From a virus (taxonomy: Duplodnaviria > Heunggongvirae > Uroviricota > Caudoviricetes), in the IMG/VR virus record IMGVR_UViG_3300039313_000009: a DNA stretch of 10,948 nucleotides; one strand, given 5' to 3'. Below are positions 1-10,948 of the stretch, in pieces. Both the position numbers and the translations under genes were made by a program. Each line of letters opens with the position of its first letter. Within the stretch, counting starts at the first letter, position 1. The notes beneath the pieces are model-generated. The model saw nothing but the letters and a program-made list of their open reading frames with translations. It had not been told where the DNA came from and ran no database searches.

Positions 1-94
1 CAAGGCATTTACGGGAGAAAAAATCGGCTCAAACATGAAGAAATGAAATGACTGAGTCAGCCGAGAAGAATTTCCCCGCTTATTCGCACCTTCC
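1..94 (+). mobile_element. IS5-type insertion sequence, terminal 94 bp of the transposase-distal end (terminal inverted repeat at 79..94); element body lies upstream of the window
   Basis: Bases 1..94 match from memory the 3' end of IS5, ending in cttattcgcaccttcc (reverse complement of the IS5 terminal repeat GGAAGGTGCGAATAAG). Bases 20..94 are a perfect reverse complement of 10874..10948. The flanking tetranucleotide CTAG (95..98) fits the IS5 YTAR target preference. Confidence 0.8.
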
Positions 95-111
95 CTAGAG
101 GCGGACGTTTT

Positions 112-1848
112 GTGGCAGAAGCTGTCGTTAAAGCTTTCAGCAGTGCGATCAAAGAAGGTTTTATCGAATATGAAAAACCATTCCTGATTGAGAGTGTTAC
201 GGATATCATAGGATCTGAGAGTGTTCAGGAATGTTTAAAATACCTTTCCGAACATGATAAGGTATTGACTATTTTCTTTGATCAGTTCGAAGAAGTCTTT
301 ATGAAAGAGGAACTATTCGGGCTATTTAAAGAATTTGAACGATTCGCACTCGATGTCTCGGCACTACAAAGCAATTTAGTTGTAGGGTTCTCATGGAGAA
401 CTGGTATTACTTTAGGGGATGAAAATCCAGCGTACTCAATGTGGAATCGGCTAAAAGATTATAGGGTTGAAAAGAAACTTGAGCCTTTTGATCTAAAAGA
501 TTCATCTAAATTAATTAATAGTTTCGAGCTAAATACAGGGTTTAAATTAAATAAACCTTTACGCACGCGTCTTATTCAGCAAGCTCAAGGTTATCCATGG
601 TTATTGAAAAAGCTTTGTATTCATGTATTCAAAAAACTAAAAGGAGGTATCTCACAGGATCAAATGTTGGTTAGTCAACTACAGATCTCAAATTTATTTC
701 ATGAGGATTTAGATAGGCCTGAAAAACAAAATTCATGTTTAAAATTTGTGGCAAAGAACTCTCCGATTAGTCAATATGAAGTTACTAAAGAGTTTGGGAG
801 TGATACTGTTTTAGAGCTAATTTCAGATAGGATGGTAATTAAAACAGGTGAAAAATTATCAGTGTATTGGGACGTTTTTCGAGATTACTTGAAAGGAAAT
901 GACCTTCCAGTTATACCATGGTCATATATGCCATCAACATCTCCGAAAATGGTTTTGTTAATTCTTGATGTTGTAAACTCGTTCAAAACCATTAGCTTGG
1001 ATGAACTGCAAACTAAACTAAAATATAGTCGGGGAACATTAATAAATGTTTTAATGGATTTGCAGTATTTTGTTCTCATAGACAGAGATTTAAATGGGAA
1101 TATAGTTTGTAAACAGACTATCACAAATGTCCCTGAGTTTCTTCGTGAGCATTTTAAGAGTCATAGTGTTTTGTTAGAATTGGCAGAGAATATTGTTGAT
1201 GCCGATTTAAGAAGAGTTCCTATCGATAAGTATGAATCTATAATAGCCCATACTTATAAGAATAAAGACGGTGGTTATCCTAAGTCTTATAGTTCAAAAT
1301 TATTGGCTTGGTTACAATTTACGGGGCTGATAGCGGTTATCGGGAAATCTGTGGTTATATATGATGGCGAGTTGTTTTCCCCAGCATTTGGGGCGATTGA
1401 TCTAGATAAAAGAGGGGCACGCAATAGAAGAGGATCACTTTTCTTAGCTGCTACTTCGCCAGAAAAAACACTCGAAGTTGCCGAGTATCTGTGCGCCAAT
1501 AAAAAAATGAGCCATTCATTCATTCAGGCGAATAAACATAGGAATGCAGTGCAGGATTTAATTTCTTTAGGTTTTTGTTCTCGACAAGATGATGGTGTGG
1601 TGATAAATAATAAAATAGAAGTTATATTAGAAAGCATCAGCCTTGAAAGGGCTTTAGCTAGGTTAGTCACTGAATCTCCAGCTATCAAAATATTAAATGC
1701 TTATGTAAATAAATTTGGCGATGATGATAAGAAAATGATGGGGGCAGCACTAGCAAAAGAACTTGAGAGAACATGGACACCTGCATCTACTACTAGATAT
1801 ATTTATGCACTAATGAGATATCGAAATTTCGCATTGGAAACTTTATAA
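112..1848 (+). CDS. STAND/AAA+-like NTPase, 5'-truncated fragment (IS5-disrupted; probably a pseudogene); winged-helix-like C-terminal region
   Basis: 578-aa ORF with Walker-B-like VLTIFFDQFEE near its start and a GxP-like QGYPWLL motif further on, but no P-loop anywhere. The reading frame stays open upstream of the GTG at 112 right through the IS5 junction (first in-frame stop at 49..51), so the P-loop region is expected to have been removed by the insertion. Stop TAA at 1846..1848. Confidence 0.5.
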   Translation: MAEAVVKAFSSAIKEGFIEYEKPFLIESVTDIIGSESVQECLKYLSEHDKVLTIFFDQFEEVFMKEELFGLFKEFERFALDVSALQSNLVVGFSWRTGITLGDENPAYSMWNRLKDYRVEKKLEPFDLKDSSKLINSFELNTGFKLNKPLRTRLIQQAQGYPWLLKKLCIHVFKKLKGGISQDQMLVSQLQISNLFHEDLDRPEKQNSCLKFVAKNSPISQYEVTKEFGSDTVLELISDRMVIKTGEKLSVYWDVFRDYLKGNDLPVIPWSYMPSTSPKMVLLILDVVNSFKTISLDELQTKLKYSRGTLINVLMDLQYFVLIDRDLNGNIVCKQTITNVPEFLREHFKSHSVLLELAENIVDADLRRVPIDKYESIIAHTYKNKDGGYPKSYSSKLLAWLQFTGLIAVIGKSVVIYDGELFSPAFGAIDLDKRGARNRRGSLFLAATSPEKTLEVAEYLCANKKMSHSFIQANKHRNAVQDLISLGFCSRQDDGVVINNKIEVILESISLERALARLVTESPAIKILNAYVNKFGDDDKKMMGAALAKELERTWTPASTTRYIYALMRYRNFALETL

Positions 1849-1857
1849 TTATTAAAT

Positions 1858-1877
1858 CATAGGGCGAAAGCCCTATG
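1858..1877. terminator. Bidirectional hairpin between convergent genes (NTPase fragment and integrase)
   Basis: Perfect 8-bp stem catagggc / gccctatg with gaaa loop, followed by a T-rich tract on the plus strand; it overlaps the integrase stop codon. Confidence 0.55.
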
Positions 1878-3060
1878 ATTTTACTTTTATACCCCACCAT
1901 GACATCAATTCTCTGCGTTGTTCTAAATAAATAGAACGATTATACGCCCGCCGTACTTCATTTTTATCTATATGCGCTAAAGCTGATTCTATAATATCGG
2001 AATTAAAACCAGACTCGTTCAACGCTGTGCTAGCTATAGAACGAAGCCCATGAGCAACGAGTTTACCGCCATAACCAATCCTTTTAAGAGCAGCATTAGC
2101 AGTTTGGCTATTCATAGGTTGTTTAGGATCATTCCTGCTGGGAAAAACATGTTCTCGGTGAGCGCTAATTGGCTTCATTACATCCAGAATCTCTAATGCC
2201 TGTGGTGATAAAGGAACAATGTGTTCCCGCTTAGCTTTCATCCGTTCGGCTGGAATAGTCCAGAGCTTCGTATCGAGATCGATCTCTGCCCAACGGGCAC
2301 CAGAGGCCTCAGAAGGGCGCACGAGCGTCAGGAGTTGCCATTCAATGAGACAGCGAGTCGGAACAGACAGATTTGACATGACTAAAGAACGCATCAGCTT
2401 CGGCAATTCTTCTGGCCGCAGCGTCGGCATGTTTTGTTTTTTGGGCTTCTCAAAGGCCATTCCAATACCTGATGCTGGATTGGCATCAATCAGACCAGTG
2501 TTTACGGCATAAATCATTATCTCGTTAATACGCTGCACTAGTCGACGTACAGTCTCAAGCGCTCCACGAGCTTTGATTGGTTCCAATGCTTCAACTAATA
2601 TTCGGGCTTTAATTTGCTGAACGGGGATCTCACCGATGGCAGGGAATACATCTTTCTCCAATGAGCGCCAAATGTCTTTTGCGTAATCAGGGGTAACGCT
2701 TTTACTTTTGAGCTGGAACCAGTTAGCGGCGACCATTGAGAAAATACTGTCCAGAGCGATTTGCTGCTGTTCCTCTGCAACTTCGGCCTGAATTTGTGGG
2801 TCAATTCCGTTGGCTAACAAGGCAAGGTAATCCGCTCTTAACCCTCGGGCGTCAGCAAGTGAAAGGGCGGGGAAAGCACCAAGCCCCATCATTGTCCGCT
2901 GTTTTGTCGCTGGACGTTGATAACGGAAACGCCAGAGCTTTTTCCCGCTGGTTTTCACTATCAGGAAAAGGCCATCGCCATCATGCAGAGTTAGATCCTT
3001 CTCTAACGCTTTAGCGCGAAGAACTTCGGTGTTGGTAAGGGGGCGTGTTGTCCGTGCCAC
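1873..3060 (-). CDS. int: P4-type tyrosine integrase (IntA/CP4-57-like family)
   Basis: 395-aa ORF. N-terminus MARTTRPLT..DGDGLFL..SGKKLWRFRY is typical of P4-like integrases; C-terminus has HGLRS and ALAH..VRRAYNRS motifs consistent with the tyrosine-recombinase active site. It lies about 185 bp downstream of an ssrA 3'-end repeat in the same orientation, as for ssrA/tRNA-associated islands. Confidence 0.9.
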   Translation of the reverse strand: MARTTRPLTNTEVLRAKALEKDLTLHDGDGLFLIVKTSGKKLWRFRYQRPATKQRTMMGLGAFPALSLADARGLRADYLALLANGIDPQIQAEVAEEQQQIALDSIFSMVAANWFQLKSKSVTPDYAKDIWRSLEKDVFPAIGEIPVQQIKARILVEALEPIKARGALETVRRLVQRINEIMIYAVNTGLIDANPASGIGMAFEKPKKQNMPTLRPEELPKLMRSLVMSNLSVPTRCLIEWQLLTLVRPSEASGARWAEIDLDTKLWTIPAERMKAKREHIVPLSPQALEILDVMKPISAHREHVFPSRNDPKQPMNSQTANAALKRIGYGGKLVAHGLRSIASTALNESGFNSDIIESALAHIDKNEVRRAYNRSIYLEQRRELMSWWGIKVKS

Positions 3061-3214: not shown

Positions 3215-3245
3215 TACTTCACCGGACGTATCCGGATCATGATTT

Positions 3246-3275
3246 GGTGGAGCTGGCGGGAGTTGAACCCGCGTT
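3246..3275 (-). other. Attachment-site repeat: the 3'-terminal ~30 nt of the tmRNA gene ssrA (T-arm, acceptor 3' strand and CCA), without the rest of the gene
   Basis: The reverse complement of 3246..3275 reads acgcgggttcaactcccgccagctccacca, matching from memory the 3' end of E. coli ssrA. Sequence beyond 3275 shows no tmRNA-like continuation, so this is a partial copy (att direct repeat), not a functional gene. Confidence 0.75.
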
Positions 3276-3402: not shown

Positions 3403-4026
3403 ATGACAATACAGGAAATAATTCAGCAACGTAATATTCGTAGCTTGTTTCATTTTACACATAGCGATAATCTAACTTCCATTTTAGATAATGGCCTTAT
3501 GTCTCGTTCAGAACTTGATAATGAAAATAATGAATATAATTATAATGATGAAGAAAGGATTGATGGTCATCCAGATGCGATTTGTTTGTCCGTAAGTTAC
3601 CCTAATGCAAAAATGTTTTATAAATATAGATGTTTAAAGCCTGGGGGCTGGGTTATATTAGAAATCAATCCATCTGTTCTTTGGGCTAAGGATTGCGCTT
3701 TTTATCCTACCAACGCAGCTTCGAATAACGTTCGTTTTATAAATATTGATTTGATGAAAGGAGCTGAGGCATTTAGTGCTTTGTTTTCAGAGAATGTTTT
3801 TGGGATTCAGAGAGATGTAAACCTTCCAAGTGAGTATACGACGGATGTTCAAGCTGAAATACTGGTATTTGAAAAAATTCCTCCCTCATATATTATAAGC
3901 ACTTTTCACCCTAACAAAGAATCTGCTGAACATTTCAAGAGATTATATCCACAGACAATACAGAGATCTTATGATAATCTTAATGCTAGAACATTTTATT
4001 CTCAGAGGCATTATTATTTAGGATAA
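3403..4026 (+). CDS. darT: DarT-like DNA ADP-ribosyltransferase toxin (DUF4433-type)
   Basis: 207 aa. LFHFTHSDNLTSILDNGL (residues 15-32) parallels the recalled DarT N-terminal motif (for example LFHITHMDNLPSILTSGL); QAEILVF (150-156) parallels the catalytic-glutamate motif; central CAFYPTNAASNNVRF resembles the conserved mid-region. AT-rich codon usage unlike the flanking prophage genes. Confidence 0.7.
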   Translation: MTIQEIIQQRNIRSLFHFTHSDNLTSILDNGLMSRSELDNENNEYNYNDEERIDGHPDAICLSVSYPNAKMFYKYRCLKPGGWVILEINPSVLWAKDCAFYPTNAASNNVRFINIDLMKGAEAFSALFSENVFGIQRDVNLPSEYTTDVQAEILVFEKIPPSYIISTFHPNKESAEHFKRLYPQTIQRSYDNLNARTFYSQRHYYLG

Positions 4027-4029
4027 GTT

Positions 4030-4719
4030 ATGGCCGTTAGACCTGTTTTCGTCCCTACAAACGCAGGGAACTTACTATCGATCACGAAGGATGTGGATTT
4101 TCCTTGGGCTCCTGGTATGTCTAAAACGCAAAAGCAAAAATCGATCAGGGCGTTACATACAGCAGCGAATGAGCAGGGATTGAACTCTTTGTTGGAAATT
4201 TCTAGTAAATCCGAAGATGCGCTGGGGGTAGCACTTAGTGCATTTAATCTAAGAATAAAGACGAAAAGACTTGGGAAAGAGTTTACAGTTGAATCTGCAT
4301 TTCAAGCAAGTAAAGTATTTGAAATGGGAGGACCATATGTCGATATCTTAGATAAAAGCTCGATAGAAGCAAAAAAAGATATGAGATTAAAGGAATCTGG
4401 GGGATTAGTTAACTTCAAATTTTATAATACAATATGGCCCATTGTCCCCAGGACTGCTTTTTATGATTGGTTATATTTGAGTGCGCTCAATCAAAACAAA
4501 AATCTAGCACTCCATCTATTAAATTTTGATGGATTTACTGATATTGAATTTAATCCAGCGAAATCTATTAATTGCCAAGCCAGAGCAGCTGCACTTTTTG
4601 TCTCTTTAGTAAGACGAAATATGTTAGATGATGTTTTATCTTCAAAGGATGGTTTTTTATCAAAATTAGCATCTCATTATGGTGTTGAAAATTATTCTAT
4701 TCAACATACATTGATATGA
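4030..4719 (+). CDS. Operon partner of the DarT-like gene: NADAR-like (YbiA/DUF1768-type) candidate ADP-ribosyl hydrolase antitoxin; no macrodomain signature
   Basis: 229 aa. Translationally coupled (3-nt gap, AGGA Shine-Dalgarno overlapping the upstream stop). LSAF..KEFTVESAFQASKVF aligns by eye with the YbiA motif FSNF..WPTSEHYFQAQKF, followed by SSIEAKKDM versus SSPMVAARM and a W...L..LL region. No DarG-like glycine-rich macrodomain motifs are visible. Confidence 0.5.
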   Translation: MAVRPVFVPTNAGNLLSITKDVDFPWAPGMSKTQKQKSIRALHTAANEQGLNSLLEISSKSEDALGVALSAFNLRIKTKRLGKEFTVESAFQASKVFEMGGPYVDILDKSSIEAKKDMRLKESGGLVNFKFYNTIWPIVPRTAFYDWLYLSALNQNKNLALHLLNFDGFTDIEFNPAKSINCQARAAALFVSLVRRNMLDDVLSSKDGFLSKLASHYGVENYSIQHTLI

Positions 4720-4751: not shown

Positions 4752-5921
4752 TTAATATCTATTTTTTCTATTTAAAGATGTATTTCCATCATATTCTTTG
4801 AGGTATGAGCCATAATGTCTAAATAACATCTCTGGTCCTTTATGACCCATTTGAACCGCAAGCCAAAACAGGTTTGCTCCCCGGCTGATATGGCTGGTGG
4901 CGAATGTATGTCTGGTTTGATATGGGTTTCTGTAACGAATACCTGCTTTCCGCAATGTTGGCACCCATGCTTTTTTTCTAATTGCATCAGCACTTGCCCA
5001 AGGCTTATTGGTCTTTGGATCTTCAAAGACTGTAGCATCCTTCATGAATGTAAATGGCTTCTGATTTATCAGCGCCAACATTGCATCTTCTGTCAGTTCA
5101 ACTTTACGAGTACCGGCTTTTGTCTTTGTTCCTTTGATAACACCGACAACACTTGCGCTCTGGACATGGGCAGTTTTTCCAACAAAGTCGATATCACGCC
5201 ATCGAAGGGCACATAATTCAGAACTACGCAGGCCTGTATGTATAGCGAACCGGAACAGATTCTCCCATTGTTTGTTTCCGGCTGCTGCTAGTAATGCATC
5301 AACTTCTGCTGGTGATAGCGGATCAACCACGTAGCTGCTTTCTGCTTCTGACTTATCACTTTGGTAGCGCGAAGCAGTTACCAACGATACGGGGTTAATT
5401 TGAAGTACCCCATCGGTTACGGCTTCATCAAGTGCTGACCGCAGGAAAGATAACTGGTTGCGAATTGTTTTTAAGGTCGTTTTCTGGCTTTGAATCCACG
5501 CTTTCAGGATTGCTGGTGTTAATTCACTTGCAGGGCAAATGTGGAGTGAGGCTAACGCACTACGGCATTTTTTATAACCACCAATCGTAGATGGTGAAAG
5601 TTTTCTCGTTTCGCAGATTTCAAGGTATTCGTCCAGGTACATTTTTACCGTTTTGCCTGCAGCAGCATTACCAAAAATTTTCAAACGAGCAGAACGGGGA
5701 AAATATTCCGCATAAATGAATGTTCCCCTTTCGATCTTATTATGAATTTCGCCGAGTGTGCGCTCGGCGTATTTAATGTTCTTTGGTGTTACTTCCAGAT
5801 TGGAAAGAGGCTCACGACATCTAACTCCTTTGTAGGTGAAAGTTATATTGATCGTTTCGCCCTGGCGGTGTTTCCTGATTGTTACGCCGCGCGGTAGTTT
5901 GAGCAGTTTTGTCTGGCCCAT
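4752..5921 (-). CDS. int: Lambdoid-type tyrosine integrase with an N-terminal arm-binding domain
   Basis: 389 aa. C-terminal motifs TRHTFAT, MGH and FRHYGSYL fit the R-H-R-Y tyrosine-recombinase active site. The N-terminus (KLPRGVTIRKH..ITFTYKGVRCRE) is arm-binding-like. GAGG Shine-Dalgarno 8 nt upstream; its 5' end overlaps the xis-like gene. Confidence 0.9.
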   Translation of the reverse strand: MGQTKLLKLPRGVTIRKHRQGETINITFTYKGVRCREPLSNLEVTPKNIKYAERTLGEIHNKIERGTFIYAEYFPRSARLKIFGNAAAGKTVKMYLDEYLEICETRKLSPSTIGGYKKCRSALASLHICPASELTPAILKAWIQSQKTTLKTIRNQLSFLRSALDEAVTDGVLQINPVSLVTASRYQSDKSEAESSYVVDPLSPAEVDALLAAAGNKQWENLFRFAIHTGLRSSELCALRWRDIDFVGKTAHVQSASVVGVIKGTKTKAGTRKVELTEDAMLALINQKPFTFMKDATVFEDPKTNKPWASADAIRKKAWVPTLRKAGIRYRNPYQTRHTFATSHISRGANLFWLAVQMGHKGPEMLFRHYGSYLKEYDGNTSLNRKNRY

Positions 5922-6088
5922 TTTGCAACCTCACTAAGATCAATCCACCTCTCCTTAACGCCTTCAACCTTTAAAACCTGAACACCTTCACGCCAAACAC
6001 CGCGCTGTACACGTTTGTTTATTGCTTCAGGAGTTTCGCCAGTTTCTTTGCAATAAGTTGAGATTGGAACACAATCGAGGTTCAGCAT
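5882..6088 (-). CDS. xis: Excisionase-like small DNA-binding protein (recombination directionality factor); start reassigned to ATG 6088 (the ORF track begins at GTG 6100)
   Basis: About 68 aa, immediately upstream of and overlapping the integrase 5' end, as is typical for xis-int pairs. GGAG Shine-Dalgarno 7 nt upstream of ATG 6088. Basic, helix-turn-helix-like composition. Confidence 0.55.
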   Translation of the reverse strand: MLNLDCVPISTYCKETGETPEAINKRVQRGVWREGVQVLKVEGVKERWIDLSEVAKWARQNCSNYRAA

Positions 6089-6147
6089 ATGTTTCTCCAC
6101 TTAGCCCGCTGCACACGGGCAGTAATATCAAATTCCAGTCCTGATAA

Positions 6148-6363: not shown

Positions 6364-6722
6364 TTCTTAGTCTCTGGTGCTTTCGGCATTACTGCCCAGT
6401 GAGTGATATTGACGTTTTCAAGGTCCCCGACCTGAAATGTCCACTGCCATTCTCCGGTTTCTTTTTGTCCCCAGGTGTACCAGAGAGAACGCCAGCCAAT
6501 CAGCCAGCCTTCTCCGTTGGCATCAAATAACAGAACACTTTCATTTGCTGGTGGCAGTTCAGCTGACACTGGTATTATTTTGCTTTCCAGTGCCGCACAT
6601 TTAGCTTCAAGCGCGTCGAATTTACGTACCAGGTACTCAGCATTTGTTTCGTTCACTTTCAGATCTCGCGGTACACATTTCCCGCGAAGAAACCCTTCCA
6701 TTTCGAAAACATTTATGCGCAT
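6360..6722 (-). CDS. yfdS: yfdS-like lambdoid prophage protein (120 aa; DUF551-type, family recalled from memory)
   Basis: 120-aa ORF with a Trp-rich C-terminus (GEWQWTF..THWAVMP). GGAG Shine-Dalgarno 9 nt upstream of ATG 6722. Gene order and sizes mirror the yfdP-Q-R-S module (120/274/178/120 aa) of E. coli CPS-53, as recalled. Confidence 0.5.
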   Translation of the reverse strand: MRINVFEMEGFLRGKCVPRDLKVNETNAEYLVRKFDALEAKCAALESKIIPVSAELPPANESVLLFDANGEGWLIGWRSLWYTWGQKETGEWQWTFQVGDLENVNITHWAVMPKAPETKK

Positions 6723-7249
6723 TTGCGTAACTCCGATAATTCGTTAAAGCGTTCCATAAACATCCCGTAGGCATGGCCTGGAGCCAGTGGAATCACGTTG
6801 AACATCTCTGTTGCCGGGATACCTTCCAGCACAGGCCAGAAAGAGCCATCATCAAGCCCGAGATCGCGGCGTTCGGTTGCCAGCATGATGAGATCGGCAT
6901 ATTTCACGGGCGTACTCATAACTGGGGGTAACCCGTATTTCTCACGGATTACGGCGTCTATTTTTTCTTCCATCCGTTTATAGTCAGGAAGAAGGCGTTT
7001 CAGTGGAGCGGGGATGTCCTGGCAATATGCTTCTGTTGCATCATGCATTAACGCTTCAAAAGCAAATTCCTGCGGTACCAGCTGGCTGCAAAGCACCGCA
7101 TGTTGGGCGACGCTGTAGAAGTGTGAAAGATGCCCTGCAAAGCGACAGATATTTGAAAGGGAAACCGCGATATCGTTAATAACGATGTCGTCTTTATTTA
7201 TCTTGTCATAATAAAAATGCTTCCCGGAAAAAGTTTTAATAAATGACAT
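6713..7249 (-). CDS. yfdR: HD-domain phosphohydrolase, yfdR-like 5'-deoxynucleotidase; start reassigned to ATG 7249
   Basis: 178 aa from MSFIKTF. GGAG Shine-Dalgarno 6 nt upstream of ATG 7249. H..HD-type metal-binding residues (AGHLSH, ALMHDATEAY). The 38-codon extension in the ORF track (to 7363) has no ribosome-binding site. Confidence 0.6.
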   Translation of the reverse strand: MSFIKTFSGKHFYYDKINKDDIVINDIAVSLSNICRFAGHLSHFYSVAQHAVLCSQLVPQEFAFEALMHDATEAYCQDIPAPLKRLLPDYKRMEEKIDAVIREKYGLPPVMSTPVKYADLIMLATERRDLGLDDGSFWPVLEGIPATEMFNVIPLAPGHAYGMFMERFNELSELRKCA

Positions 7250-7343
7250 TTTGTTCTCCTCGTTATGTGCGCTGCACCGCACTGAATTTTGGCAAAAGGA
7301 AGCCCTCACCACCCGGCGATTATTGAGTAAATTATGTTTCCAT

Positions 7344-7365
7344 AAATGCCCCCGCAGGGGCATTT
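7344..7365. other. Perfect 9-bp GC-rich hairpin in the yfdQ-like/yfdR-like intergenic spacer
   Basis: aaatgcccc-cgca-ggggcattt; no flanking U-run on either strand, so not a canonical intrinsic terminator. Confidence 0.4.
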
Positions 7366-7377
7366 GCAGTAATGAAA

Positions 7378-8202
7378 TCAGGCGGTGAAAGTCCCAATAA
7401 AGGTTTCTACTTTGCTGTCCTTGAATTTCTCAACAAGCAGATCACGAAATTCGTTAGCCATTTCTTCCTGCACGGCCTCCAGCTGAATAATGCGCAGAAC
7501 CAGTACAGGACGATCGCCAGTGATAATGCTGAGGCGTAATTTAAACGGACGTTCTTTCAGACCTTCAAACGGAACGCATTTAAATTCAAATGCCACTGGC
7601 ATAATGTCTTTGGTCTTCGCTTCGACAGACTCCATCAGGGAGCGTTTGCCGCTGAAGTCATTATCTTCAAAATCAGCGGTCTGGTTTGCTTCAATCGTGA
7701 TTTTACGGACAGCCGCAGCCGCTTTTGTTGCCTGAATAGCGTCACCATTAGCATCAAAGCCCACAAGGTAGTCGGCCCAGTCTTCAATCCATTCTGCCAG
7801 TGACTTCTGGGAATGACGCTCGCCATTAACAGACAACAGAGCAGAGAACGGTGCTGTCTTTTTCAGTTTGAGAGTGGAGGTGTTATCTGCGTGACCTGGT
7901 TCATCAATAGTACCCAGGTTAAGCACACTGACGGCACGCATATTATCGGCATCGATAAAGCAGCGGGTGCCTTCATCTGCAAGATCTTTAGAATAACGGG
8001 TAAAATCATCGATGCTGGCAGTGGAAAGTGCACCACGGAAACGGAAGCGATTTAAATTAAATTTTTCCAGATCATGAATGCGGAAATTCTCAGGCAATGC
8101 CACAGCATCGGCACCAATCTTACTGATAATTTCATTAACACCCTGAGCAGAAATAAGGGCATGGATTTGATTAATTGCGGTTGCGTCTAAGTTCTGAGAC
8201 AT
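7378..8202 (-). CDS. yfdQ: yfdQ-like lambdoid prophage protein (274 aa; DUF2303-type, family recalled from memory)
   Basis: 274-aa ORF with GAGGA Shine-Dalgarno 7 nt upstream of ATG 8202; position and size match yfdQ within the yfdP-Q-R-S module. Confidence 0.5.
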
Positions 8203-8900: not shown

Positions 8901-9040
8901 GAAGGTCGACTGTCAGCCTCAACCTTAACCCGCGTGCGCTGAGCCGCATTCACCACAACGCTAAGGATTCTCTCTGGTTGAAAATACTTAGCTGTTATGT
9001 GCCTGCTTTTAGCCACATCAGGCGAGGTGGACCTGGTTAT

Positions 9041-9086
9041 TCCCCAACAACAAGGATTCGGTTAATCTGGATATCCCCAACAACAA
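9041..9086 (+). promoter_or_regulatory. Two perfect 13-bp direct repeats tccccaacaacaa upstream of the zinc-ribbon gene; candidate operator or iteron sites
   Basis: Copies at 9041..9053 and 9074..9086, ending 15 bp before the GTG at 9101. Confidence 0.4.
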
Positions 9087-9100
9087 TAAGAGTATTCAAT

Positions 9101-9616
9101 GTGATCGCTGAATTAACGGCAGCAATGACGGCTATTCGTGAAACAGCCCAGATTGCAAAACTAATGAACGAGGCAAAAACTCAAGCTGAAGTAAATGCGG
9201 CTATTGGTGAGCTGAACTCAAAGCTTGCGTCTATTCAGCGCGAATGCGTGTCTCTCGTTGAACTGGTGGGCTCTTATCAAGAAATAAATGCTTCTCTCAA
9301 AGCTAAAATTGCAGAATTCGAAAACTTTGAGGCTCAGACGGAAGGCTATATCCTTAACCAACTTGAGTCGGGTACTTTTGTATACTCGAAGGAGGTAATC
9401 GTGAACGGTGGCAGCATAACCATGCATCTTTGCCCAAAATGTTTTGGACAAAAGATAGTATCGATACTTCAACCATTCCCGGTTAGCGAAGATGAGCTTT
9501 TTCATAAAAGCAGGTGCCTCCACTGTGAAAATAAGTTTCTGATGAATAAAAATCCGGATTACGTATCGCCTCCATCCATTGAGGAGTTGTCCAGAAAACT
9601 TAACGGCAATCTGTAG
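9101..9616 (+). CDS. Hypothetical coiled-coil protein with a C-terminal CxxC..CxxC zinc-ribbon (about 164-171 aa); the start may instead be ATG 9125
   Basis: Open frame with GTG 9101 (AAGAG 8 nt upstream) and ATG 9125. N-terminal heptad-like, Ala/Glu/Lys-rich segment; C-terminal HLCPKCFGQ..SRCLHCENKF. Followed by a terminator. The 5' part of the track ORF (8837..9100) lies in the GC-rich block and is rejected. Confidence 0.45.
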   Translation: MIAELTAAMTAIRETAQIAKLMNEAKTQAEVNAAIGELNSKLASIQRECVSLVELVGSYQEINASLKAKIAEFENFEAQTEGYILNQLESGTFVYSKEVIVNGGSITMHLCPKCFGQKIVSILQPFPVSEDELFHKSRCLHCENKFLMNKNPDYVSPPSIEELSRKLNGNL

Positions 9617-9656
9617 ATTACTACTGTTGTGGATATCCAGATTGTTAAAGAGCTAA

Positions 9657-9678
9657 GCGTCCTGTAGGGCGCTTTTTT
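9657..9678 (+). terminator. Rho-independent terminator for the zinc-ribbon gene
   Basis: gcgtcc-tgta-gggcgc stem-loop (one G-U pair) followed by TTTTTT. Confidence 0.6.
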
Positions 9679-9763
9679 GTTGCTAACGAATCATCCGGTC
9701 ATTCATACGCCACCGGCGGCTACTTCGTGGGCGTCCTGCCTGTCCGTGATAGCTTACATTATG

Positions 9764-10000: not shown

Positions 10001-10846
10001 TTACTTTGTAAGTTCTAGAACTCGTTGAGCCAGCCCTTTAAATTGTTCGTTAAAGGCGTCTCTGCTTGATTTCATTGTATTTAAGGCATGCCCAAATTGC
10101 CCTGAATCGCGAATTTGCTGATCACTGATGGAGAAAACAGGTGTCGCTAGTTGTTGGCTTATTGCGATTAATGAGTTGAAATCGGAAATATGCGCAAGAT
10201 CATAGGCTGATAAATCTCCACTGACTGTTGTTTTGTTAATTGCATGTTGCACTTTATCTCGTGGAATTATGCAGGTAATTTTTTCTAGATTTGGCACTAA
10301 GATCGAATCAACAGCATCACGGATAGCTGCCATCCATTTTTCGAAAGATTTTACAGGTGCTCCTTTACGCGGCCTGTATCTCTGCTGAATCATACCTAGA
10401 AACTGCGGTGCATTTTTAATTGATTGTGAAGAGTTACCATCATTATTTTCTTTAAATAATGCTAATTCTTTGTGCCAGCGAGGTATATTTTTTGAGAGAG
10501 AGCGAATTGCTTGCCAGCAAAAAAAGTCTGGAGCTACAGGTACGATAAAATAGTCACTTGACATGAGAACTACTTCATTTAAACCTCCAACATTAGGGCT
10601 GAGATCATAAAGAATGTAATCAATATTATTCTTCATGGCGATTAGCTGTAATATTTTTGGCAGGTTCCCTGGTATATTTCTTGTAGCAGGAATACCAGCA
10701 GCAATTTTTAGAGAAACACTTATCTGTGAATCTAAGTCCGAAACATCTAAATGTCCGGGAAGAAGCAGAAGGTTTTCATGCAGTGTAGGGTGTAATTTTC
10801 CCGTTTCTTTTTCAAGGTATGCTTCAGGTTGTCCGCCATTAATCAA
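10001..10846 (-). CDS. ParA/MinD/Soj-superfamily ATPase, 5'-truncated fragment (IS5-disrupted; frame open to 10873; deviant Walker A missing)
   Basis: The segment DYILYDLSPNVGGLNEVVLMSSDYFIVPVAPDFF matches the ParA core (hydrophobic strand, Asp, then ...P...S/T...AL..AD..hhP). The track start is a TTG and the frame continues open into the IS5 junction; no KGGxGKT P-loop is present. Confidence 0.65.
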   Translation of the reverse strand: MINGGQPEAYLEKETGKLHPTLHENLLLLPGHLDVSDLDSQISVSLKIAAGIPATRNIPGNLPKILQLIAMKNNIDYILYDLSPNVGGLNEVVLMSSDYFIVPVAPDFFCWQAIRSLSKNIPRWHKELALFKENNDGNSSQSIKNAPQFLGMIQQRYRPRKGAPVKSFEKWMAAIRDAVDSILVPNLEKITCIIPRDKVQHAINKTTVSGDLSAYDLAHISDFNSLIAISQQLATPVFSISDQQIRDSGQFGHALNTMKSSRDAFNEQFKGLAQRVLELTK

Positions 10847-10873
10847 ATATTCTACAATAGGTCCAAGAGTTAA

Positions 10874-10948
10874 GGAAGGTGCGAATAAGCGGGGAAATTC
10901 TTCTCGGCTGACTCAGTCATTTCATTTCTTCATGTTTGAGCCGATTTT
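10874..10948 (-). mobile_element. IS5-type insertion sequence, terminal 75 bp of the transposase-distal end (terminal repeat at 10874..10889), inverted relative to the left copy; element body lies downstream of the window
   Basis: ggaaggtgcgaataagcgggg... at 10874 onward is the exact reverse complement of 20..94. The flanking tetranucleotide TTAA (10870..10873) fits the YTAR target preference. Confidence 0.8.

What the first reader, a model, noticed from the sequence alone, without database searches (positions are those of the whole stretch)
95..1848. IS5-inactivated STAND-like NTPase as cargo of the P4-type island
The fragment has Walker-B-like and GxP-like motifs and a long winged-helix-like C-terminal region but no P-loop, and its frame is open into the IS. 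Single large STAND NTPases in P4-type islands are often anti-phage sensors, so this may be a defence gene knocked out by IS5.
Basis: inference. Interest (0 to 1): 0.5.

Follow-up and report, generated by a model that had tools for sequence, protein, structure and literature searches.

The report
IS5-broken NLR-like nuclease defence gene
This is the dead back two-thirds of a predicted phage-defence gene carried by a P4-type satellite, cut in half by an IS5 jumping element; the intact gene is already catalogued, so the case is ordinary.

Summary
Window 1-94 is the right end of an IS5-type element and 95-98 is its CTAG target. From base 95 the window is 100% identical to nt 989-2742 of a 2742-nt E. 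coli gene, WP_000113630 (913 aa). In related genomes that gene lies between psu and the integrase of a P4-like satellite at ssrA.

The intact protein has:
- an N-terminal Mrr-type PD-ExK nuclease;
- a STAND NTPase (Pfam nSTAND1/AAA_16) with Walker A at residues 296-302;
- a C-terminal array of winged-helix domains.

IS5 cuts at codon 330/331.

The exact protein is already listed as P4-hotspot system 13 by Rousset et al. [quoted passage not shown] I found no record that it was tested. It most likely works like the Avs proteins: ligand sensing, NTP-dependent oligomerisation, then nuclease activation. This step is inferred.

The same junction occurs in two other assemblies. At least three other independent lesions hit this gene (Q208*, Q227*, an IS1 truncation), plus one unresolved break at nt 610. 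53 of 54 complete genomes carry it intact. Low interest.

The parts
1..94 (+). Right end of an IS5-type insertion sequence (terminal inverted repeat at 79-94). The transposase gene would lie upstream, in the same orientation as the fragment.
   Evidence: 100% identical to 8212 places in E. coli genomes. In NZ_CP025913 this stretch lies directly after an IS5-family transposase CDS.
95..98 (.). CTAG, the IS5 target site (one copy of the presumed 4-bp duplication). It is the first four bases shared with the uninterrupted gene.
   Evidence: The alignment of window 1-160 with the intact STEC346 gene becomes identical from window 95.
95..1848 (+). 3' remnant (nt 989-2742; codons 331-913 plus stop) of the 913-aa Mrr-nuclease/STAND NTPase gene WP_000113630. 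It lacks a start, the nuclease and Walker A.
   Evidence: 100% identity, 0 mismatches. 54 of 5426 complete E. coli genomes carry the gene.
262..294 (+). Walker B strand and acidic residues (VLTIFFDQFEE, residues 386-396).
   Evidence: D392 Q393 F394 E395 E396 are invariant in 54 homologues. Strand E386-392 in the model.
589..597 (+). STAND GxP motif (G495-Y-P497) in the helical domain.
   Evidence: G495, P497 and W498 are invariant. Helix 497-512 in the model.
721..906 (+). First winged-helix domain (residues 539-600). It completes the NBD-HD-WHD module of the STAND NTPase.
   Evidence: Model secondary structure: H539-551, H556-563, H565-573, E577-580, E583-586. Y587 W588 D589 F591 are invariant.
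907..1845 (+). Presumed sensor (residues 601-913): three further winged-helix domains plus a terminal helical bundle. It is the least conserved part of the protein.
1854..1881 (+). 12-bp hairpin with a T-rich tail between the convergent remnant and the integrase gene (terminator-like).
1873..3060 (-). P4-type tyrosine integrase (395 aa, WP_000124712), the right border of the psu-int hotspot.
   Evidence: Pfam Arm-DNA-bind_3, Phage_int_M and Phage_integrase. Same gene next to ssrA in L001, L002 and L004.
3245..3274 (-). Last 30 nt of ssrA (tmRNA 3' end). This is an att-site copy that separates the P4-like satellite from a second integrated element.
   Evidence: Identity with the ssrA-bearing locus stops at window 3274. 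ARAGORN finds no complete tmRNA. ssrA lies at L001 12151-12513.
10874..10948 (-). Second IS5 right end, inverted relative to the first and preceded by TTAA. It bounds the window and truncates a ParA-like ORF.

Best explanation
Window 95-1848 is a non-functional 3' remnant of a single-gene, NLR-like (Avs-like) candidate phage-defence gene. That gene is the cargo of the psu-int hotspot of a P4-like satellite integrated at ssrA.

Shown: an IS5-type element inserted at a CTAG in codon 330/331, between Walker A and Walker B. This separates the N-terminal Mrr-type PD-ExK nuclease and the P-loop from the rest of the protein. The remnant carries no further mutation, so the insertion is recent.

Inferred, for the intact 913-aa protein: the C-terminal winged-helix array holds the protein autoinhibited until it binds a phage-derived ligand. 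The STAND NTPase then binds ATP and oligomerises. This brings the Mrr nuclease domains together, and they degrade DNA so that the infection aborts.

Inferred, for the remnant: it has no start codon context, no effector and no P-loop, so it cannot do this. The defence is lost in this strain.

Not resolved: whether codons 1-330 survive on the far side of the IS5.
For: Structure of the locus:
- The breakpoint is exactly at window 95, with 0 mismatches over 3180 nt to the intact locus.
- The IS5 identity rests.
- The intact gene lies between psu and int, next to ssrA.
- The same junction is present in two independent ENA assemblies.

Protein:
- Pfam Mrr_cat (residues 24-117), nSTAND1 (255-402) and AAA_16.
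- Invariant E54/D56/E71/K73, Walker A, Walker B and GxP in 54 homologues down to 28% identity.
- AF2 model with pLDDT 84.4 showing nuclease, NBD-HD-WHD and a winged-helix array.
- The best Foldseek PDB hit is Avs4 bound to a phage portal (8dgf_B, E 1.1e-10), followed by archaeal STAND-like ATPases, ORC/Cdc6, NOD2 and NLRP3.
- The sensor is the fastest-evolving part.

Literature:
- Seven of 19 systems tested from this hotspot defended against phage, including a TIR-STAND-TPR protein.
- The Mrr-STAND protein Avs8A cuts dsDNA when it binds capsid protein together with ATP (PMC12236752).
Against: - I found no experimental test of this protein. It is absent from Table S2 of PMC9122126, and the accession appears in no paper of the searched library.
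- It matches no PADLOC 2.0 defence model apart from a marginal P-loop match to DndF, and no solved structure by sequence.
- The Foldseek match to Avs4 has low TM scores (0.18 and 0.12).
- The sensor is not the TPR-type repeat usual in Avs proteins. It is about 310 aa of winged helices, so the ligand could be a nucleic acid rather than a protein.
- The N-terminal side of the IS5 lies outside the window, so 'simple insertion' is not shown.
Confidence: 0.8

Rival explanations
1. The intact protein is a restriction-type enzyme rather than an NLR-like sensor. Its winged-helix array binds foreign or modified DNA directly, the NTPase acts as a switch or motor, and the Mrr domain cuts that DNA without cell suicide. 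The window would still hold an IS5-killed copy.
For: - RefSeq names it 'restriction endonuclease' in most genomes.
- Mrr_cat is the catalytic domain of modification-dependent enzymes (Pfam).
Against: - The NTPase is STAND-type (nSTAND1, a GxP motif, NBD-HD-WHD), not a translocase.
- The winged-helix domains are near neutral in charge across the family.
- The sensor diverges faster than the enzyme core, as in immune receptors.
- The best fold match is Avs4.
Confidence: 0.12
2. The remnant is still expressed, from GTG 112 or by read-through from IS5. It would act on its own, for example as a ligand-binding decoy or a dominant-negative partner of an intact paralogue.
For: - The frame is open from window 52.
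- The transposase gene has the same orientation.
- The remnant has no secondary mutations, and gene callers annotate it as a 578-aa protein.
Against: - There is no promoter-like site in 1-112, and a TGA at 49-51 stops the frame coming out of IS5.
- Genomes carry one copy of the gene at most, so no intact partner is expected.
- The absence of further mutations is explained equally well by a recent insertion.
Confidence: 0.05
3. The junction is an assembly or chimera artefact, and the gene is intact in the real genome.
For: Both ends of the window stop inside IS5 copies, as happens with short-read contigs.
Against: - The IS end abuts the gene at a canonical CTAG target, with the complete terminal repeat.
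- The same junction appears in two other assemblies that end at different k-mer lengths, 55 and 51 nt.
Confidence: 0.02

Closest known systems
P4-hotspot system 13 of Rousset et al. 2022 (PMC9122126, Table S1B: 'AAA_35/Mrr_cat', NLR-like protein with an N-terminal endonuclease effector)
   Same: The protein sequence is the same (MARPLPLNKDLIV..., WP_000113630), it sits in the same psu-int position, and it carries the same predicted role.
   Different: The window holds only codons 331-913, cut by IS5. The catalogued system is intact. It was not among the 19 systems tested in that paper.
Avs4 / Avs3 (antiviral STAND proteins with an Mrr-like or Cap4-type nuclease; PDB 8DGF)
   Same: The order of domains is the same: nuclease, STAND NTPase, C-terminal sensor. 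Avs4 is the best Foldseek PDB hit, at E 1.1e-10.
   Different: Avs4 is 1534 aa with a large TPR-type sensor that binds the portal. This protein is 913 aa with about 310 aa of winged helices. There is 12% identity, low TM scores, and no PADLOC defence-model match.
Avs8 (PD-lambda-4A) of E. coli
   Same: It is an Mrr nuclease fused to a P-loop/STAND NTPase. It cuts dsDNA, in an ATP-dependent way, once its ligand is bound (PMC12236752).
   Different: Avs8 is a two-gene operon and senses HK97-fold capsid proteins. The protein studied here is a single gene, its ligand is unknown, and it shows no PADLOC hit.
TIR-STAND-TPR protein of the P4 hotspot (validated by Rousset et al. 2022)
   Same: It sits in the same hotspot, is also a single gene, and has the same effector-STAND-sensor logic.
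   Different: Its effector is TIR, not Mrr, and its sensor is TPR, not winged-helix. It has been shown to defend, whereas this protein has not.
Archaeal Walker-type ATPases PAB2304 and SSO1545 (PDB 2QEN, 2FNA)
   Same: They are the closest solved folds for the NTPase plus winged-helix core, at E 2.5e-8 and 2.2e-7 with target TM scores of 0.53 and 0.43.
   Different: They have no nuclease effector and no extended sensor. Their function is unknown, and no link to defence has been shown.

Membership tests
Avs / bacterial NLR-like antiviral STAND proteins | Tripartite architecture: N-terminal effector, central STAND NTPase, C-terminal sensor, all in one polypeptide | tested here: met
   In the intact homologue: Mrr_cat at 24-117, nSTAND1/AAA_16 at 255-402, and a C-terminal domain array at 601-913. 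The window fragment itself keeps only part of the NTPase plus the sensor.
Avs / bacterial NLR-like antiviral STAND proteins | STAND NTPase signature: Walker A, Walker B, a GxP motif in the helical domain, and a winged-helix domain after it | tested here: met
   S296-G-x-G-K-S-S302, D392-QFEE396 and G495-x-P497 are invariant in 54 homologues. NBD-HD-WHD is seen in the model. Walker A is missing from the window.
Avs / bacterial NLR-like antiviral STAND proteins | Sequence match to a described Avs or other defence family model (PADLOC 2.0) | tested here: not met
   Only a marginal DndF P-loop match, E 4e-4. The window fragment gives no match at all.
Avs / bacterial NLR-like antiviral STAND proteins | Large repeat-type (mostly TPR-like) sensor; at least 400 aa was required for the clustering of Lee et al. 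2026 | tested here: not met
   The sensor is about 310 aa: three winged-helix domains plus a helical bundle. This feature is typical of the family rather than strictly defining.
Avs / bacterial NLR-like antiviral STAND proteins | Protection against phage, and cell death triggered by a phage component | not testable with these tools
   I found no published test. The supplementary tables of PMC13581612 are not held.
Pfam nSTAND1 (PF20703) and Mrr_cat (PF04471) | Score above the curated gathering threshold | tested here: met
   Intact protein: nSTAND1 scores 32.0 against 27.1, and Mrr_cat scores 32.1 against 21. The window fragment alone scores for neither family.
Cargo of the P4-like satellite psu-int defence hotspot | Located between psu and the P4-type integrase of a satellite that also carries sid, delta, alpA and the primase | tested here: met
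   Met in the uninterrupted loci L001, L002, L010, L011 and L012. In the window only the integrase side is visible, because the psu side lies beyond the IS5.
IS5 insertion | IS5 terminal inverted repeat abutting a YTAR target, and identity to IS5 copies next to an IS5-family transposase | tested here: met
   The target duplication could not be checked, because the other junction lies outside the window.

The most novel reading that the evidence does not exclude
The family would be an Avs-like receptor with an unusual, compact sensor made of three winged-helix domains. It would detect something other than the core phage proteins sensed by TPR-type Avs proteins, for example a nucleic-acid structure or a small DNA-binding phage protein. 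Carrying it would be costly enough for it to be knocked out repeatedly: IS5, IS1, Q208*, Q227* and possibly a break at nt 610. That would run against the reported rarity of defence pseudogenes in P4 hotspots (PMC13586616).
Probability: 0.15. Interest if true: 0.55.

Novelty: already known. Interest (0 to 1): 0.2.

Why it matters
The practical value is annotation. The 578-aa ORF should be marked as an IS5-disrupted pseudogene of a P4-hotspot NLR-like nuclease, not as a protein, and the strain should be scored as lacking this defence.

Two modest leads go beyond that:
- WP_000113630 occurs in about 1% of complete E. coli genomes (54 of 5426), and Rousset et al. counted 97 occurrences among 5,251 psu-int loci in more than 20,000 E. 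coli genomes. It still appears untested, and it has a non-TPR winged-helix sensor whose ligand is unknown.
- At least four independent lesions of this one gene exist in public assemblies, and a fifth is unresolved. They offer natural loss-of-function alleles for comparing phage sensitivity or fitness cost.

Tried and rejected
- Domain searches of the fragment alone (Pfam, NCBIfam, PADLOC) gave nothing useful. The NTPase family became detectable only with the intact homologue.
- A sequence search of the PDB gave only marginal P-loop matches.
- I tried to place the protein among Avs7-24 of Lee et al. 2026. No supplementary tables are held for the paper or its preprint, so this stays open.
- The accession is cited in no paper of the searched library.
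- No complete E. coli genome has this IS5 junction. Scans of genome contigs found nothing, and metagenome contigs returned only the ENA contig already found. The far side of the IS5 therefore could not be recovered.
- The 26-nt sequence that precedes the gene at nt 610 in L013 matched nothing.
- I rejected the idea that shorter homologues (about 650 aa) are natural nuclease-less variants. In A. baumannii the Mrr part is a separate ORF directly upstream at the same locus, so the gene is split.
- I rejected the idea that the sensor module is shared with other effector architectures. All 125 clusters place it at residues of about 580-900 of proteins of about 900 aa, or are fragments.

Full report
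**The observation**

The window has an ORF at 112..1848 (+), 578 aa, starting at GTG. Its frame stays open upstream across base 95 until a TGA at 49-51.

Window 1-94 ends in ...CTTATTCGCACCTTCC and is followed by CTAG. These 94 bases are 100% identical to 8212 places in 1733 of 5426 complete E. coli genomes. In NZ_CP025913 they lie immediately after an IS5-family transposase CDS. This is therefore the right end of an IS5-type element, with its transposase gene in the same orientation as the ORF.

An alignment with an uninterrupted copy of the gene becomes identical exactly at window 95. Window 95-3274 matches E. coli STEC346 and EC1722-1 with no mismatch over 3180 nt.

**What the gene is**

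In STEC346 and EC1722-1 the gene is 2742 nt and encodes 913 aa (WP_000113630). It lies between psu and a P4-type integrase. The element also carries sid, an ogr/delta-like gene, an AlpA-type HTH regulator and a primase-helicase, and it is integrated at ssrA. The psu-int interval is the documented defence hotspot of P4-like satellites (PMC9122126).

The intact protein reaches the Pfam thresholds for Mrr_cat (residues 24-117) and nSTAND1 (255-402), and it also matches AAA_16.

Among 54 homologues of about 900 aa, down to 28% identity, the following residues are invariant. The homologues come from Serratia, Pantoea, Pectobacterium, Vibrio, Aeromonas, Acinetobacter and Desulfobacterales.
- The nuclease residues E54, D56, E71 and K73.
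- Walker A, S296-G-x-G-K-S-S302.
- Walker B, D392-QFEE396.
- The STAND GxP motif, G495-x-P497.

IS5 sits in codon 330/331. The window therefore keeps Walker B (262-294), GxP (589-597) and everything downstream. It lacks the nuclease and the P-loop.

**Structure**

An AlphaFold2 model built on the 54-sequence alignment has a mean pLDDT of 84.4. It shows these parts:
- a nuclease domain (1-145);
- a small beta-rich domain (156-208);
- a disordered acidic linker (209-254);
- an NBD-HD-WHD module (255-600);
- three further winged-helix domains and a terminal helical bundle (601-913).

The best Foldseek hit in the PDB is Avs4 bound to a phage portal (8dgf_B, E 1.1e-10, but with low TM scores). It is followed by the archaeal ATPases 2QEN and 2FNA, by ORC/Cdc6, and by NOD2 and NLRP3.

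This C-terminal module is the least conserved part of the protein and is near neutral in charge. It is found only at the same position in proteins of about 900 aa, in 125 clusters of a 1.84-billion-protein library.

**What is known about it**

The identical sequence is system 13 in Table S1B of Rousset et al. 2022. [quoted passage not shown] The main text mentions STAND proteins of the hotspot whose effector is Mrr_cat.

It does not appear in their table of tested systems, and its accession is cited nowhere else in the searched library. It matches no PADLOC 2.0 model except a marginal DndF P-loop hit, and no solved structure by sequence.

Lee et al. 2026 describe 90 sensor clusters and Avs7-24, including several E. 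coli representatives. Their supplementary tables are not held. I therefore cannot say whether this clade already carries an Avs number.

**How it most likely works**

By analogy with Avs3/4 and with Avs8A, I infer the following sequence. Avs8A is an Mrr-STAND protein that degrades dsDNA when it is bound to capsid protein and ATP (PMC12236752).
1. The winged-helix array keeps the protein autoinhibited until it binds a phage-derived ligand.
2. The NTPase then binds ATP and oligomerises.
3. The clustered Mrr domains cut DNA, which aborts the infection.

What is shown: the architecture, the conserved catalytic motifs, the hotspot position and the fold neighbours. What is inferred: the ligand, the oligomerisation, the nuclease activity and the defence itself.

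**State of the locus in the window**

The remnant has no promoter-like site ahead of GTG 112, no effector and no P-loop. I therefore regard it as dead. Because it carries no secondary mutation, the insertion is recent.

The same junction is present at the ends of two ENA contigs: ERZ1741830 NODE_29 (which is also OAUD01000029.1) and ERZ28565060 scaffold_190. The allele is therefore real and is shared by a lineage.

No complete E. coli genome has it. 53 of the 54 complete genomes with the gene carry it at full length.

The window's other end (10874-10948) is a second, inverted IS5 end that truncates a ParA-like gene. The window is thus an IS5-bounded segment, probably a whole short-read contig. 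Whether codons 1-330 survive beyond the IS5 cannot be decided.

**Other lesions of the same gene**

A look-up of the 578-aa product found further independent inactivations:
- Q208* (nt 622 C>T), in two assemblies;
- Q227* (nt 679 C>T);
- an IS1A truncation at nt 1195 in strain MB53, with loss of the rest of the satellite;
- a break at nt 610, preceded by 26 nt of unknown origin.

This look-up only detects lesions upstream of codon 336. The frequency is low, at 1 of 54 among complete genomes. A recent survey reports that defence pseudogenes are rare in P4 (PMC13586616), and these cases are among the exceptions.

**Verdict**

The object is an IS5-disrupted pseudogene of an already catalogued, apparently untested, NLR-like Mrr-nuclease gene of the P4 hotspot. 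It is ordinary as a finding. The intact family is a reasonable candidate for experimental testing because of its unusual winged-helix sensor.

Noticed in passing
window 10001-10948: A second IS5 right end (10874-10948) lies inverted relative to the one at 1-94 and is preceded by TTAA. It truncates a ParA-like ORF (10001-10873, minus strand) whose frame runs open into the IS. The window is an IS5-bounded 10.8-kb segment, so an inversion or a composite structure is possible.
   Followed up: partly
window 3403-4719: A DarT1 (3403-4026) and NADAR antitoxin (4030-4716) pair sits between the ssrA att copy (3245-3274) and a second integrase (4752-5921, minus strand) with an excisionase (5885-6100). 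In E. coli EC1722-1 the same slot holds RloB plus an AAA ATPase. This looks like a second variable cargo slot in a tandem island at ssrA.
   Followed up: partly
L010, L011, L012, L004, L013 (gene coordinates nt 610-1195): The same gene carries independent lesions in other strains: Q208* (nt 622 C>T), Q227* (nt 679 C>T), an IS1A truncation at nt 1195 with loss of the P4 core (strain MB53), and a break at nt 610.
   Followed up: yes
L013 1-26: The 26 nt GTGATCTCCTTTCATGAAAATACGCA that precede the gene at nt 610 match nothing in the fetched loci or in the species-representative genomes. Their origin is unresolved: an IS end, a rearrangement or an assembly artefact.
   Followed up: partly
L005 8001-10691; L008 4270-6959: In Acinetobacter baumannii the homologue is a lone insert between nrdAB and a tetR gene. 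It is either full length (896 aa) or split into an Mrr ORF (216 aa) plus an ATPase ORF (652 aa). The split falls in the region that is a disordered linker in the model.
   Followed up: partly
window 9030-9684: The window departs from the otherwise 99.5-99.7% identical ENA contigs L014 and L015 between about 9030 and 9684, and again after 9747. It carries an ORF of unknown function (9092-9613, phrog_1244), where those contigs have a ClpX-type zinc-finger gene and a LexA-like repressor/Cro module.
   Followed up: no
window 6716-7363 and 7381-8202: The second element carries prophage genes: a YfdR-type 5'-deoxynucleotidase (phrog_318), a DUF2303 protein (phrog_210) and a YfdS-like protein. The ORF listed at 6713..7363 is longer than the 178-aa gene called in related contigs, so its first start codon is probably not the one used.
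   Followed up: no
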